Of a DNA stretch of 64,000 nt, positions 3,583 to 46,462 are shown one piece after another. Positions within the stretch are counted from its first letter, which is position 1. Each line of letters opens with the position of its first letter. Both the position numbers and the translations under genes were made by a program. The stretch is from the IMG/VR virus record IMGVR_UViG_3300025732_000002, positions 1,209 to 65,208 of that record, one strand, 5' to 3'. Under the pieces are notes generated by a model. It saw only the letters and a program-made list of their open reading frames with translations, searched no databases and was not told the DNA's origin. Source of the stretch: a virus. Its lineage: Duplodnaviria > Caudoviricetes.

Positions 3583-4560
3583 ATGAACTACAGCGAACTC
3601 GTTTCTGCTATTCAGGCGTATACGGAAAACGCGTTTCCCGATACGTATCTGTCCAATGGGACGGTGATTGGGCCCAATGCTCAGATCAACCGTTTCATTG
3701 AGCAGGCCGAGCAGCGCATCTACAACACAGTTCAGTTTCCGTCTCTGCGCAAAAACATGACCGGTCACTTGACTGCGTCAAATCCTTACTTGTCTGCGCC
3801 CGACGATTATCTTTCCACGTACTCACTGGCCGTCATTGTTAACGGCGAGTACAAGTACCTTCTCAACAAAGACGTTAACTTCATTCGACAGTCTTATCCA
3901 AATCCGAGCTTGGATGTTGGAGCACCTGAGTACTATGCGTTATTTGGCCCCACTGTATCTGGTAGCACTATTACTAACGAGCTGTCCTTTATTGTTGGAC
4001 CAACGCCTGATCAAAACTACGACGTTGAGCTGCACTTCTACTACTACCCCCAATCTATTGTGCAGTCCTCTATTAACGCGCTAGGCGTTATTGTTGGCGG
4101 ATCTGGTTACACGAATGGTAAGTACTACGGCGTGCCGCTCACGGGCGGTACTGGCCAAGGCGCGGTGGCAGACATTGTTGTCACGGGCGGTGCAGTGGAT
4201 GAGATCTTCATCAAGAACGCCGGATGCTTGTATACGGTTGCTGACAATCTTTCCGCGGATGCAACGTACCTTGGCGGCACTGCAACGGTAGATTTCTCTG
4301 TACCCATCACGCAGGTCAACAATGCTCAAGGCACGTCTTGGATTGGCGATAACTTTGACACCGTGCTGCTGTACGGCTGTCTGGTTGAGGCCTACACCTT
4401 TATGAAGGGTGAGGCGGACCTGATTGCTCTGTACGACGGCAAGTACAAGGAAGCCATGGCCATGGCCTCTCGTCTGGGTGACGGCCTCGAGCGCAGCGAT
4501 GCTTACCGCAGTGGTCAGTATCGTCAGGCACCGTTGCCACAGAATAGCGGAGTCCGTTAA
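3583..4560 (+). CDS. Putative head-closure / tail adaptor protein
   Basis: MNYSELVSAIQAY..FIEQAEQRI; LLYGCLVEAYTFMKGE; synteny. Confidence 0.6.
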   Translation: MNYSELVSAIQAYTENAFPDTYLSNGTVIGPNAQINRFIEQAEQRIYNTVQFPSLRKNMTGHLTASNPYLSAPDDYLSTYSLAVIVNGEYKYLLNKDVNFIRQSYPNPSLDVGAPEYYALFGPTVSGSTITNELSFIVGPTPDQNYDVELHFYYYPQSIVQSSINALGVIVGGSGYTNGKYYGVPLTGGTGQGAVADIVVTGGAVDEIFIKNAGCLYTVADNLSADATYLGGTATVDFSVPITQVNNAQGTSWIGDNFDTVLLYGCLVEAYTFMKGEADLIALYDGKYKEAMAMASRLGDGLERSDAYRSGQYRQAPLPQNSGVR

Positions 4561-4994
4561 TGGCTTTTACTGGCAACTACGTCTGCAACGTGTTTAAGAC
4601 TGGCGTGCTGGATGGCACGTACGACTTTGGTTCTGACACGTTCAAGATTGCCTTGTATACCAATGCAGCAACGTTAAACGCAGACACGACTGCTTATACG
4701 ACTGATGGTGAAGCTTCTGGTGGAAACTATGTTGCCGGCGGTGCTACGCTGGTAGTTAACCAAGTGCCTACGGTTGGCGCGCAGAATGGCCCCAATGCAG
4801 TGGCCTACATTTCATTTGCAAATGCAACGTGGACTGGATCAATCACCGCCAGAGGCGCTTTGATCTACAAGTCTGGTGGTGGAAATCCTGCTGTTTGTGT
4901 GCTGGATTTTGGGTCCACAAAAACGTCTAACAGTTCTTTTGTTGTTGAATTTCCCGCGCCTACTAACACGTCGGCAATCATTCGCTTGGTCTAA
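4560..4994 (+). CDS. Virion structural protein, paralog of 5212-5667
   Basis: DTFKIALYT..L.A.TTAYTT.GE. Confidence 0.7.
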   Translation: MAFTGNYVCNVFKTGVLDGTYDFGSDTFKIALYTNAATLNADTTAYTTDGEASGGNYVAGGATLVVNQVPTVGAQNGPNAVAYISFANATWTGSITARGALIYKSGGGNPAVCVLDFGSTKTSNSSFVVEFPAPTNTSAIIRLV

Positions 4995-44013: not shown

Positions 44014-44554
44014 GGCTGCTACAGAGGATCGCAGACCGAAGTTTGCTGCGAATTAAGTGGGACTCAGAACCCAGCCTACGCCCGACTGGACACAGGTAGA
44101 CCGCATTACGCCGCCGTAACTGTGTTGAGAGGCTACGGGGGAACCTTCCCAAGCCGACCCGAAATGAGTGAGGCGAAAGCCTGCGAGGAACCGGGAGAAG
44201 GGGGTGTAGCAAGCACCGTAATCCTCGACTGCAGAACGCTTGCATGTGTCTGCTGGCCCCGTTATGTCCCATCCCGACCGACAGGTTGAATGGCAGGAGG
44301 CAAACCACTAAGGGCAGCAATGCTCTTAGGTGAGTTCTGCCCCTAGCGAACCCTCCCTCCCTCTAGGTTAAATAAATATATTATGAGTAGAGCCGGAAAC
44401 AAAAGTTCTCTGGCAACGTTGCCAACAGGAAACCAAAGAATCCAGCTGTCACTTAGGTGACATTTTTTTGTTGACCAGTGGTGCACATAAGCGTACATTT
44501 CTGCACATGGCAGCAGCAAGACTGTCATTCATCAACCTAAATTGGAGTAAGCAA

Positions 44555-45214
44555 ATGAGCGTGAAAGAAGAGACTGGTGTTATCACCGCCCCCAAGTTTG
44601 GCACCGTGCAGTTCATCATCGAGGGCACTGCCCCGCTGGTGGTGGAGCGGTTCAGCAAGAAGGCGGAGCTGATGGCCAAGATGGCAGAGGGTTCATCTGC
44701 CAAGAACAAGAAAGAGCGTAGTGCACGGGACTATGACAAAGAGGCCGAGGAGGCCCGTTACCGTTCGCCCGAGGGCTGGGAGGGTATGAATGCTGCGGCC
44801 TTCCGCGCGGCCATGATCAGTGCCTGCCGTCTGGTGGGTTTCAAGATGACGCTGGCTAAGCTATCCACCTTTGTTGAGGCTGACGGGTTTGATAAGAACG
44901 ACGGGGTTCCGTTGGTCCAGATCTATGGTGAGAGCCACACGTATACCGCTCACACCCGCAACGCGACCGGCGTGGTGGATGTGCGTTCACGTCCGATGTA
45001 TCGCAAGTGGGCGGCCAAGCTGTCGGTGCGGTATGACATGGACCAGTTCAAGATGACAGATGTATTGAACCTTGTGTCCCGTTGCGGGATGCAGGTAGGG
45101 ATCGGGGCGGGCCGTCCTGACAGCAAGGCTTCGGCTGGCTGTGGGTTTGGTCTGTTCCGTGTGGTGGAGACCGACCGCGAGAAAGAGGTCAAGAAGCAAT
45201 TCAAGATCAATTGA
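44555..45214 (+). CDS. Stand-alone Cas7/RAMP-like RNA-binding protein
   Basis: IEGTAPL strand; AAAFRAAMISA helix; RP.YRKW..L.V.YD; G-rich loop GMQVGIGAGRP......GFGLF.V; GGAG RBS. Confidence 0.75.
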   Translation: MSVKEETGVITAPKFGTVQFIIEGTAPLVVERFSKKAELMAKMAEGSSAKNKKERSARDYDKEAEEARYRSPEGWEGMNAAAFRAAMISACRLVGFKMTLAKLSTFVEADGFDKNDGVPLVQIYGESHTYTAHTRNATGVVDVRSRPMYRKWAAKLSVRYDMDQFKMTDVLNLVSRCGMQVGIGAGRPDSKASAGCGFGLFRVVETDREKEVKKQFKIN

Positions 45215-45221
45215 TTCGCTA

Positions 45222-45666
45222 GGCAGGCATGGCTAGGCGCGGATCGGCGCGGCCAGGATCGTCAGGGCAGGCAGGGCGGGGAACGGCTTGGCTGGGATCG
45301 GCTTGGGCCGGCGCGGTTTGGAATGGCAGGCGAGGCAAGGCACGACGGGGTAAGACCCGGAGAGGCAGGGCAGGCTTGGAGAGGCGGGTATAGGCCAGGC
45401 CGGGAATGGTGTGGTGCGGAATGGCAACGCAGGCTAGGCGAGGCCGGGATAGGAGTGGTATCGCAAGGACTGGCAGGCGAGGAGAGGCTTGGCAAGGACG
45501 AGCAAGGCGTGGTTTGGCAACTCAAGGCAGGCGTGGTGAGTCGAGGTTCGGTCAGCTTTGGATTGGGAAGGCAGGCAAGGTGTGGCGAGGCGAGACCGGG
45601 TACGGCATGGCCGGGTGTGGCAGGCATGGTTAGGCTCGGAGCGGCCGGGATCGGCTAGGCAGGCAA
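45222..45666 (+). repeat. Non-coding GG(Y/A)NN pentamer array of nine GGCA-delimited units (putative guide-RNA array)
   Basis: 80 in-phase pentamers, 70 starting with GG; 4-nt delimiters at 45222, 45266, 45325, 45369, 45428 (CGCA), 45472, 45526, 45570, 45619, 45658. Confidence 0.9.
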
Positions 45667-45686
45667 TTTTTTAACAGGAGAGAAGC

Positions 45687-46145
45687 ATGAGTTTGGAAAT
45701 TGAAAAGACAGTACTGATGGATATTGCCAAGAAAAACGGCGGCATTCTTCAGGTGGATGCGGTGTTGGACGAGGCCAAGGACGAGAACAGTCCTTTGCAC
45801 AGTCACTTTGAGTGGGATGACAGTGCTGCCGCGGAAGCGCACCGCCGCTATCAGGCGCGCGTCCTGATCCAGCGATGCAAGATCACCATCGTGGATTCTG
45901 AACCAACCACCATTCGGGCATTTGTTAGCCTTCAGTCAGACCGAGAAGCTGGCGGCGGCTATCGCATGACGACCAAGGTCATGGACGACGAGGCCCTGCG
46001 GGAGGAGTTCCTGCGGGACATCCGTCTGACCATTGCGCGCTGGAACCAGAAGCTGAACCTGCTGGACTCCATCACCGCGGAGCTGATCTACAAGTTGGAA
46101 GATGCCGTGCAGCCGGCAACGGCACCACTGGAGAAGCGGGCATGA
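45687..46145 (+). CDS. Conserved hypothetical protein, putative accessory factor of the RAMP/array locus
   Basis: AGGAG RBS; SPLHSHFEWDDSAAAEAHRRYQARVLI...RAFVS. Confidence 0.8.
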   Translation: MSLEIEKTVLMDIAKKNGGILQVDAVLDEAKDENSPLHSHFEWDDSAAAEAHRRYQARVLIQRCKITIVDSEPTTIRAFVSLQSDREAGGGYRMTTKVMDDEALREEFLRDIRLTIARWNQKLNLLDSITAELIYKLEDAVQPATAPLEKRA

Positions 46146-46462
46146 AGCGTGCCCTGATCTTGGCGCTCATGGTGGGCTCGGCGCATGCTGAGTTCATGGA
46201 CGGCAACAAGTTACTCTCTGATCTTCAGAGTGGTTATGTTGAGAACAGGATGTACGGCATGGGCTACATCATTGGGATAGCCGACATGGGTCGTGGTTAT
46301 ATCAATTGCATGCCTGAAAACGCAACCGCCGGACAAATTCGAGACATGGTCAAGAACTATCTCGAGAACACGCCGGCTGAGCGGCATCAAACGGGGGACA
46401 TATTGATCAACCGGGTTCTCAAGGCCGTCTGGCCGTGCGCTAGGCGTGGCAATTCAATGTAA
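46142..46462 (+). CDS. Rap1a-like exported immunity-family protein
   Basis: Signal peptide (..AHA/EF); GN.L, GYI.GIAD, C.P....GQ..D.V..YL...P..RH, WPC. Confidence 0.75.
   Translation: MKRALILALMVGSAHAEFMDGNKLLSDLQSGYVENRMYGMGYIIGIADMGRGYINCMPENATAGQIRDMVKNYLENTPAERHQTGDILINRVLKAVWPCARRGNSM

What the first reader, a model, noticed from the sequence alone, without database searches (positions are those of the whole stretch)
45270..45657. NN strings decode as codon positions 1-2 of conserved mobile-element protein motifs (wobble-skipping code)
Each unit was written as NN-x-NN-x and translated, choosing among the allowed residues. U2 reverse complement ATx AAx GCx GGx AAx GAx CAx AAx GTx CCx CT = MKAGKEHKVPL, near the MKAGKEHRVPL segment of P4-type tyrosine integrases. 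U9 reverse complement = YDRAEY[IM], resembling the catalytic-Tyr region YNRAEYL of that family. U7 forward = VDESHLFK, a DExH motif II of SNF2/DarB-like helicases. U4 forward = LDGYHRIVAIK, like the ParB/Srx DGxHR motif. U6 (DEFNRKVFNN, SprT-like) and U8 (VDERTIRV) are weaker; U1, U3 and U5 gave nothing clear. Inference: guides read 2 of every 3 target bases and skip the wobble base, resisting synonymous escape, and target integrative elements, satellites or rival phages. Hits in both orientations would imply dsDNA targets. Caveat: residue ambiguity and two orientations leave room for chance matches.
Basis: inference. Interest (0 to 1): 0.95.

Follow-up and report, generated by a model that had tools for sequence, protein, structure and literature searches.

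The report
Phage VIPR guide array, wobble-skipping code
This stretch is the guide-RNA array of a phage VIPR system, a CRISPR-like DNA silencer first described in 2026 that reads two of every three target bases; two of its nine guides spell conserved genes of rival mobile elements, so it is a real example of a kind already in print.

Summary
It is also already published as the VIPR "1-nt skip rule" (bioRxiv 10.64898/2026.04.26.720920, with companion preprints).

**What the locus is**
- Window 45222-45664 holds nine NNGG[C/T/A] units joined by GGC-A-GGC phase slips.
- The upstream gene (44555-45214) is a Vipr/RAMP protein. Its profile hits the PDB entry "SUSP1 Vipr protein", and its fold resembles Cas7/Csm3.

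**Units with a target**
- **U2:** the gap-1 pattern (22 fixed bases) gave 6 of 6 exact hits in frame on MKAGKEHKVPL of tyrosine integrases. Allowing up to 2 mismatches gave 7 more in-frame hits, against 0 for the reversed control.
- **U5:** Of these, 118 lie in frame on YDRYVIKL of Sak4-like AAA_24 genes, on the opposite strand sense to U2.

**Units without a target**
- U4, U6, U7 and U8 gave no hits or hits at chance level.
- U1, U3 and U9 got no collection scan, and the local DNA sets gave chance-level scores.

**Support from relatives**
Guides in sister phages hit the HxxR and catalytic-Tyr motifs of the same integrases.

This scan has found VIPR arrays before on other DNA. Verdict: a new member of a known kind.

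The parts
44555..45214 (+). vipr gene, 219 aa: a RAMP/Cas7-like protein that would polymerise on the guide RNA
   Evidence: A profile of 85 homologues hits PDB 36pp_D 'SUSP1 Vipr protein' at E 3.3e-7 over the C-terminal G-rich region. The AF2 model has pLDDT 94.2. Foldseek top hits are Csm3/Cas7-type subunits of type III and VII complexes, E about 1e-5. No Pfam, NCBIfam or PADLOC family matches; PHROGs gives phrog_4652.
45222..45664 (+). vrRNA array: nine units of 7-11 NNGG[C/T/A] pentamers joined by GGC-A-GGC junctions. At each junction one pentamer is shortened to AGGC, a 1-nt phase slip. There is no 3' tail between units.
   Evidence: It is the only such period-5 tract in the window. The same kind of array follows the gene in 57 of 59 related viral loci. 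There is no Rfam family and no tRNA.
45229..45268 (+). U1 (8 NN), target not found
   Evidence: A longer relative of this unit from L010 gave 0 exact viral hits.
45273..45327 (+). U2 (11 NN): guide antisense to the MKAGKEH[K/R]VPL motif of tyrosine integrases
45332..45371 (+). U3 (8 NN), target not found
45376..45430 (+). U4 (11 NN), target not found
45435..45474 (+). U5 (8 NN): guide with the sense of the YDRYVIKL motif of Sak4-like AAA_24 genes of other phages
   Evidence: The unit family is present in 14 related loci as well as the window.
45479..45528 (+). U6 (10 NN), target not found
45533..45572 (+). U7 (8 NN), target not found
45577..45621 (+). U8 (9 NN), target not found
45626..45660 (+). 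U9 (7 NN), too short to test by exact scan
45687..46145 (+). Candidate vap (Vipr-accessory) gene, 152 aa, with a conserved PLHxxFEWD..A....R..QAR.LI motif
   Evidence: It follows the array here and in relatives. Homologues sit beside vipr in Mycobacterium phage Donkeykong (gp50), Gordonia phage ODay (gp20) and Cy-LDV1 (g33). PHROGs gives phrog_15946; there is no Pfam or PDB relative. The AF2 model is helical with pLDDT 70.7, and Foldseek finds nothing.
44471..44499 (+). Promoter-like site just upstream of vipr (weak)
   Evidence: Consensus scan, 9 of 12 matches. The region holds 3 such sites against 1.6 expected from shuffles.

Best explanation
The tract is the guide-RNA (vrRNA) array of a VIPR system carried by a 65-kb phage.

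**Mechanism (from the preprints).** Vipr protomers, encoded by the upstream gene, bind each GGY triplet of the transcript and present the two variable bases. The row of NN dinucleotides pairs with double-stranded DNA while skipping every third target base. Because targets lie in coding sequence with the skipped base on the wobble position, synonymous changes in the target leave the match intact. Binding silences transcription.

**Targets in this phage.**
- U2 is aimed at a conserved motif of tyrosine integrases of integrative elements.
- U5 is aimed at a conserved motif of the Sak4-like recombination ATPase of other phages.
- No guide matches the phage itself.

**What is shown here:** the array anatomy, the kinship of the gene with Vipr/RAMP proteins, and the exact in-frame, wobble-phased matches of U2 and U5 on opposite strands.

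**What is taken from the preprints and not tested on this locus:** filament formation, dsDNA binding and silencing.

**What is inferred:** that each unit between GGC-A-GGC junctions is one guide, and that silencing an integrase immobilises a competing element.
For: **Gene.**
- The Vipr profile hits PDB 36pp_D.
- The confident AF2 model has a Cas7/Csm3-like fold.

**Array.**
- Across 299 distinct units from 60 loci, pentamer positions 3 and 4 are G in 90% and 86% of cases.
- Position 5 is C or T in 83%.
- Positions 1-2 are close to even.
- The array follows the gene in 57 of 59 viral relatives.
- It is also present beside homologues in three annotated phages.

**U2.**
- 6 of 6 exact hits lie in frame on MKAGKEHKVPL.
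- The one hit I scanned with Pfam, L068, has Arm-DNA-bind_3 + Phage_int_M + Phage_integrase.
- At up to 2 mismatches, 7 hits occurred in 7 of 201 genomes against 0 for the reversed pattern. One of these is the exact hit (L067, G005) found again; the other six are new. All 7 lie in frame on RMKA[G/R]KEH[K/R/T/H]VPL.

**U5.**
- 118 of 120 lie in the sense frame of ORFs of 100 aa or more.
- The 120 hits comprise 27 distinct 23-mers, and their variation sits at the skipped positions.
- 3 of 3 ORFs scanned are AAA_24 / phrog_124 'Sak4-like'.

**Whole clade.** I scored 270 NN strings against six integrase loci.
- Gap 1 gave 4 strings at 0.9 match or better. Gaps 0, 2, 3 and 4 gave 0, 0, 1 and 0. Five shuffles gave 0, 0, 0, 1 and 0, and the reversed order gave 1.
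- The high gap-1 hits spell (LAHAI)SNKVEAAYR. All 7 variants of another unit family best match (T)[VA]HGFRS[ST]FRD.

**No self-targeting.** No unit scores above shuffles on the phage's own 65-kb genome.

**Published rule.**
Against: - Seven of the nine units have no identified target. U4, U6 and U8 gave no exact viral hit. U4 gave none in metagenome contigs. The hits of U6 and U7 look like chance.
- U5 gave 0 exact hits in 151 bacterial genomes of the order of G005. Its targets were seen only in viral contigs.
- No RNA evidence exists for this locus. The sequencing runs are kept as contigs, and the two RNA-library contigs cover only part of the downstream gene.
- The match to solved Vipr covers only about 50 C-terminal residues.
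- Only 1 of the 6 exact U2 hits and 3 of the 120 U5 hits were scanned against family libraries. The rest are assigned from their printed motif context.
- The label 'P4-type' for this integrase architecture is recalled, not tested.
Confidence: 0.9

Rival explanations
1. The decodings are chance pattern-matching. Each dinucleotide allows one to four residues, two orientations were tried, and the motifs came from memory, so some resemblance to a conserved motif is bound to appear.
For: - U7's 31 exact hits equal the chance number and fall in unrelated families.
- U6's 8 hits are unrelated.
- U4's 3-mismatch hits equal the control.
- Codon-like strings land in frame anyway: 21 of U7's 31 hits lie in frame 0 of ORFs of 126 aa or more with no shared family.
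Against: - U2: 22 of 22 bases match, 6 times, always on the same integrase motif. About 0.07 hits were expected.
- U2 at up to 2 mismatches: 7 hits against 0 for the reversed control.
- U5: at least 120 hits, 118 in one family and one frame.
- Independent units in sister phages hit two further motifs of the same integrases.
Confidence: 0.04
2. The array is a guide array with a different geometry: either contiguous NN read-out (gap 0) or a symmetric 3-base skip mirroring GGY.
For: A 3-base skip would mirror the way Cascade-type complexes flip bases in both strands. This is a recalled analogy, and the preprint also raises it.
Against: - In the integrase loci, U2 scores 13-15 of 22 at gaps 0, 2 and 3 against 22 of 22 at gap 1.
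- Across 270 units, gaps 0, 2, 3 and 4 give 0, 0, 1 and 0 strings at 0.9 match or better, against 4 at gap 1.
- The published in vitro and reporter tests accept only the 1-nt skip.
Confidence: 0.02
3. The tract is a non-guide element. Candidates are a protein-coding G/A/R-rich ORF (as annotated in Mycobacterium phage Donkeykong gp48), an RNA G-quadruplex, a sponge for a GG-binding protein, or an origin or packaging site.
For: - ORFs of 54-121 aa can be drawn through it.
- GG every 5 nt could form two-tetrad quadruplexes (inference).
- It lies in a replication module.
Against: - A 5-nt period with 1-nt slips cannot keep a reading frame, and no single ORF spans the array.
- None of these readings explains exact, wobble-phased matches of the NN strings to foreign genes.
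- None explains the obligatory RAMP neighbour.
Confidence: 0.02

Closest known systems
VIPR (Viral Interference Programmable Repeat) systems. Type II exemplars are Escherichia phage SUSP1 and a Pseudomonas fulva prophage (bioRxiv 10.64898/2026.04.26.720920, 10.64898/2026.04.26.720927, 10.64898/2026.10.15.759431).
   Same: - A Vipr RAMP gene beside GGY/NN pentamer RNA genes.
- The 1-nt skip rule with the skipped base on the wobble position.
- Targets on both strands.
- Targets in recombinase genes of integrative elements and in genes of rival phages.
- No self-targeting.
- A small accessory gene next door.

(for the papers; here.)
   Different: - Type II vrRNAs are about 100 nt with 9-16 repeats and a conserved, structured 3' tail. 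Here 7-11 repeats run straight into the next unit through a single GGC-A-GGC slip, with no tail.
- This fits the 'staggered arrays with overlapping vrRNAs' of the preprint's Fig. S18. I saw only the legend. The text says sRNA-seq confirmed the other two architectures, not this one.
- Sequence likeness to SUSP1 Vipr is limited to about 50 residues.
- Which of the seven types this locus belongs to could not be read, because the supplements are closed.
Class 1 CRISPR-Cas backbone (Cas7/Csm3 filaments on crRNA)
   Same: A RAMP fold with a G-rich loop. One protomer binds per fixed number of guide nucleotides, with periodic interruption of pairing (recalled, and stated).
   Different: - No CRISPR repeats or spacers.
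- No other cas genes among the ten neighbouring ORFs scanned, and no PADLOC family for the two flanking genes.
- Period 5 with two paired bases, rather than period 6 with five.
- A gapped target.
- The system is carried by the phage.
TRAP-type RNA recognition: 11 (G/U)AG triplets with 2-3 nt spacers wrapped on a protein ring (recalled)
   Same: A protein reads a conserved triplet at a period of about 5 nt on single-stranded RNA.
   Different: In TRAP the spacers carry no information. Here the spacers are the information. I considered this before the Vipr hit and then dropped it.

Membership tests
VIPR system | A Vipr protein: a minimal RAMP (RRM core, G-loop, thumb) related to the described Viprs | tested here: met
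   The profile of 85 homologues hits PDB 36pp_D 'SUSP1 Vipr protein' at E 3.3e-7. The AF2 model (pLDDT 94.2) gives Foldseek hits to Csm3/Cas7-type chains at E 1e-5 to 1e-3. Invariant glycines and an arginine cluster at residues 178-199.
VIPR system | vrRNA genes of tandem YNNGG (GGY/NN) pentamers next to vipr | tested here: met
   There are 80 pentamers in nine units at 45229-45660. Clade-wide composition is G 90% and 86% at positions 3 and 4, C+T 83% at position 5, and variable NN. 57 of 59 relatives carry an array.
VIPR system | NN strings match natural targets under the 1-nt skip rule, with the skipped base on the codon wobble position | tested here: met
   Met for U2 and U5. No target was found for the other seven units.
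VIPR system | No self-targeting of the carrier | tested here: met
   The best score of every unit on the phage's own 65-kb genome equals that of shuffles, at most 81%. There is no gap-1 excess against 62 related loci.
VIPR system | A vap accessory gene of one of the six described families | not testable with these tools
   A conserved 152-aa neighbour exists. The vap families are defined in figures and supplements I could not see. Pfam, PDB and Foldseek give nothing.
VIPR system | vrRNAs are expressed, processed and bound by Vipr, and the RNP silences dsDNA targets | not testable with these tools
   Only contigs of public runs were available. None shows RNA ends.
VIPR type II (SUSP1 / P. fulva clade) | Each vrRNA ends in a conserved, structured 3' tail | tested here: not met
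   Units abut through a 4-nt AGGC with no intervening sequence. The locus is therefore not filed as type II.
CRISPR-Cas | A repeat-spacer array with contiguous spacers, plus adaptation genes | tested here: not met
   No direct repeats other than the pentamers. No cas family among the ten neighbouring ORFs scanned, and no PADLOC family for the two flanking genes.

The most novel reading that the evidence does not exclude
In this tail-less 'staggered' clade, the boundary between guides is set only by a one-base phase slip (GGC-A-GGC). That slip may stop or restart the Vipr filament, so guides may be defined by protein phasing rather than by an RNA handle.

The same junctions may also serve as recombination points that shuffle, delete and exchange whole guides between phages. 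That would give turnover of specificities without any Cas1/Cas2-like adaptation machinery.

Observations that fit this reading:
- The window and L001 have identical Vipr and the same seven trailing units, but different leading ones.
- L002-L004 share leading units and differ in trailing ones.
- One metagenome contig joins 45525 to 45619, skipping 93 nt, which is exactly the length of U7 plus U8 with their junctions.

The preprint names staggered arrays but reports no sequencing of them.
Probability: 0.3. Interest if true: 0.5.

Novelty: new member of a known kind. Interest (0 to 1): 0.3.

Why it matters
That independent route is good support for the rule in a distant, freshwater-phage clade with a different array architecture.

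The locus adds natural targets for this clade:
- Three conserved motifs of one family of tyrosine integrases. This parallels the published silencing of a satellite recombinase by SUSP1.
- A conserved motif of Sak4-like recombination ATPases of rival phages.

It also shows that the same module sits, unannotated or annotated as a hypothetical protein, in isolated actinobacteriophages (Mycobacterium phage Donkeykong, Gordonia phage ODay).

It does not open a new kind of system.

Tried and rejected
**Readings considered before the Vipr hit, then dropped**
- A TRAP-like ring binding site.
- A CsrA-type GGA sponge. Only a minority of pentamers are GGA.
- A rut site on the minus strand.
- G-quadruplexes.
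- An origin or pac site.
- A pentapeptide-repeat ORF.

**By-eye impression that NN is more conserved than GGN in related units**
An unbiased half-unit test gave mismatch rates of 6, 11, 8, 11 and 17% for positions 1-5. Only position 5 is clearly looser, so I make no claim from this.

**Polar, CRISPR-like acquisition**
Rejected, because related arrays share blocks at either end.

**Target searches that led nowhere**
- U4.
- U6.
- U7.
- U8.
- A 12-NN relative of U1 from L010.
- All window units against 12 integrase loci and against the 120 Sak4-bearing loci. Only U2 and U5 respectively scored.
- U5 in 151 bacterial genomes: 0 hits and 0 control hits.

**Six-fold codon switches**
Among 44 column-wise differences between homologous units, 8 are Arg, Leu or Ser codon-family switches when read as reverse complement, against 1 when read forward. 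This is suggestive, but the numbers are small and I do not rely on it.

**Downstream gene**
No Pfam, PADLOC, NCBIfam or PDB relative. The model is of middling confidence and Foldseek finds no match.

**Sequencing runs**
- All 14 listed are kept as contigs.
- Of the four I laid, the two RNA-library runs (X7, X10) each gave one contig over part of 45638-45971 and none over the array. This says nothing about expression.

**Supplements closed**
The preprints' data S3 and S4 and tables (type assignment, target lists) may already contain this clade and its targets.

Full report
**What is there.** Between two plus-strand genes of a phage early/replication module lies a 443-nt tract (window 45222-45664). 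The module also holds an exonuclease, a ParB-like protein, a helicase and a Toprim primase. The tract is made of pentamers NNGG[C/T/A]. Ten times a pentamer is shortened to AGGC, giving GGC-A-GGC junctions that shift the phase by one base and cut the tract into nine units of 8, 11, 8, 11, 8, 10, 8, 9 and 7 pentamers. It is the only such tract in the window. It has no Rfam family and no tRNA, and no single ORF can span it.

**The array belongs to a conserved module.**
- The upstream 219-aa protein (44555-45214) has no Pfam, NCBIfam or PADLOC family. Its family is nonetheless large: 5401 proteins at E 0.001 or better among 5576 candidates in one search, and 2177 cluster representatives in another.
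- Of 59 related viral loci, 57 carry a GG period-5 array directly after the gene. The other two end at the gene.
- The same grammar, including the AGGC junction, occurs beside homologues in three annotated phages. In Cyanophage Cy-LDV1 there are two arrays flanking the downstream gene. In Gordonia phage ODay the array fills the gap between genes 19 and 20. In Mycobacterium phage Donkeykong the array lies upstream and is annotated as the protein gp48.
- Across 299 distinct units, positions 3 and 4 are G in 90% and 86%, position 5 is C or T in 83%, and positions 1-2 are nearly even.
- The units fall into 208 families and are shuffled between phages. L001 has an identical protein and the same seven trailing units as the window, but different leading ones. 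L002-L004 share leading units and differ in trailing ones.

**Identification.**
- A profile of 85 homologues hits one PDB entry, 36pp_D 'SUSP1 Vipr protein', at E 3.3e-7 over the glycine-rich C-terminal part.
- The AF2 model (pLDDT 94.2) resembles Csm3/Cas7-type RAMP subunits.
- A full-text search then found three 2026 preprints on VIPR systems.
- Of 10.64898/2026.04.26.720920 I read the abstract, all of Results, methods sections 20, 26 and 27, and passages of the supplementary legends.
- Of 10.64898/2026.04.26.720927 I read the outline and abstract.
- Of 10.64898/2026.10.15.759431 I read the outline, abstract and section 6.
- These papers report the following. Vipr is a minimal RAMP. vrRNAs are YNNGG repeats. 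The NN dinucleotides pair with dsDNA under a '1-nt skip rule' whose skipped base falls on the codon wobble position. Targets lie on both strands. Binding silences transcription. Natural targets are satellites, prophages and other VIPRs. SUSP1 silences the excision recombinase of its satellite.
- They also name 'staggered arrays' whose vrRNAs overlap by 1 nt (Fig. S18, legend only). The text says sRNA-seq confirmed the other two architectures, not this one.

**Test on this window: U2.**
- The gap-1 pattern (22 fixed bases) gave 5 exact hits in genome contigs and 1 in viral contigs. About 0.07 were expected in the former from uniform composition (my arithmetic).
- All six read, as reverse complement, MKAGKEHKVPL in frame inside ORFs of 402-476 aa (stop to stop), with every gap on codon position 3 and differing wobble bases.
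- The one ORF I scanned, in L068, has Arm-DNA-bind_3, Phage_int_M and Phage_integrase. I recall this architecture as 'P4-type' but did not test the label. Its neighbours are a second integrase, an AAA_25 protein, a ClpP-capsid fusion and a GpZ-like protein.
- In these loci the other gaps reach 13-15 of 22.
- At up to 2 mismatches the pattern found 7 sites in 7 of 201 genomes of the order of G005, and the reversed pattern found 0. One of the 7 is the exact G005/L067 hit found again.

**Test on this window: U5.**
U7, with the same number of fixed bases, returned 30.
- 118 of the 120 hits lie in the sense frame of ORFs of 100 aa or more. The printed contexts share ...KRFDSPEH[ED]PYDRYVIKL....
- The 120 hits comprise 27 distinct 23-mers, with variation at the skipped positions.
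- Three of three ORFs scanned are AAA_24 and phrog_124 'Sak4-like ssDNA annealing protein'.
- U2 is antisense and U5 sense to their target genes, so both DNA strands are addressed.
- Against this: U5 had no exact hit in 151 bacterial genomes of the order of G005.

**The rest of the array.**
- U4: no exact hit in viral or metagenome contigs and none in five genomes at up to 3 mismatches. In 401 genomes there were 4 hits at 3 mismatches against 2 for the control, reading FDRQQRFVAM and the like.
- U6: 0 viral hits and 8 unrelated metagenome hits.
- U8: 0 viral hits.
- U7: 31 hits in unrelated families. Several ORFs of about 200 aa carry VDESQFF, which I recall as a thymidine-kinase motif but did not test. 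Only one hit reads VDESHFFK.
- U9 has too few fixed bases to scan.
- U1, U3 and U9 scored like shuffles on the DNA held.
- No unit matches the phage's own genome or its relatives' loci better than shuffles.

**Support from sister arrays.**
- I scored 270 NN strings against the six integrase loci. Gap 1 gave 4 strings at 0.9 match or better. Other gaps gave 0, 0, 1 and 0. Five shuffles gave 0, 0, 0, 1 and 0, and the reversed order gave 1.
- Besides U2, the high scorers are units of L001, L002 and L016, with relatives in L003, L004 and L039 at 0.89. They spell (LAHAI)SNKVEAAYR, the catalytic-tyrosine region.
- All 7 variants of another unit family best match (T)[VA]HGFRS[ST]FRD at 18-20 of 24 to 20 of 30. 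Other gaps reach 15-19.
- The clade therefore aims several guides at three conserved motifs of one integrase family.

**Verdict.** The thing is a VIPR locus with a tail-less, staggered array. This makes it a new member of a kind published in 2026, and this scan has met such arrays on other DNA several times already. What remains open is how guides are delimited and exchanged at the one-base junctions. One metagenome contig skips exactly U7 plus U8.

Noticed in passing
L061 (Mycobacterium phage Donkeykong, NC_051648.1) 2476-2820: The annotated CDS gp48 ('hypothetical protein', 128 aa) is an NNGGC/AGGC pentamer array lying just upstream of the vipr homologue gp49. The vap-like gp50 follows gp49 with only a 14-nt gap. 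It is likely a guide array mis-called as a gene.
   Followed up: partly
L062 (Gordonia phage ODay, MW534375.1) 3583-3795; L060 (Cy-LDV1, BK059895.1) about 3650-3840 and 4435-4590: The same pentamer grammar with GGCAGGC junctions fills unannotated gaps beside vipr and vap homologues. In ODay the module sits between the tail-assembly chaperone and tape-measure genes. Cy-LDV1 has arrays on both sides of the vap-like gene.
   Followed up: partly
window 45525-45619: One contig of run X1 (probably DNA) joins 45525 to 45619, skipping 93 nt. That is the exact length of U7 plus U8 with their junctions. Other contigs in that run leave the window sequence at 45252 and 45310 into other pentamer units. Whole guides seem to be lost or swapped at junctions within one sample.
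   Followed up: no
window 46142-46462: The gene after the vap-like gene encodes a Rap1a-family protein (Pfam PF18602, E 4.9e-15). This is the family of immunity proteins to type VI secretion effectors, an odd passenger in a phage early operon.
   Followed up: no
L068 1021-3832 and 8663-10606: The viral contig holding the exact U2 target has two adjacent, divergent integrases of the same architecture and a fused ClpP protease-major capsid ORF of 647 aa. I did not test whether it is a satellite or a small prophage.
   Followed up: partly
unit families in L008, L014, L023, L027-L032, L035, L036: Variants of one guide family differ by CT/CG, AA/AG and GA/CT. Read as reverse complement, these are switches between the two codon families of Arg, Leu and Ser. 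The guides appear to track synonymous variants of one protein motif. The numbers are small.
   Followed up: partly
L073-L102: Chance hits of a codon-like gapped pattern (U7) still fall in the coding frame in 21 of 31 cases. In-frame placement alone is therefore weak evidence for a VIPR target. Convergence on one protein family is what counts.
   Followed up: yes
window 44468-45214: The longest ORF for vipr starts at a TTG at 44468. The ATG at 44555 matches the N-termini of homologues.
   Followed up: partly
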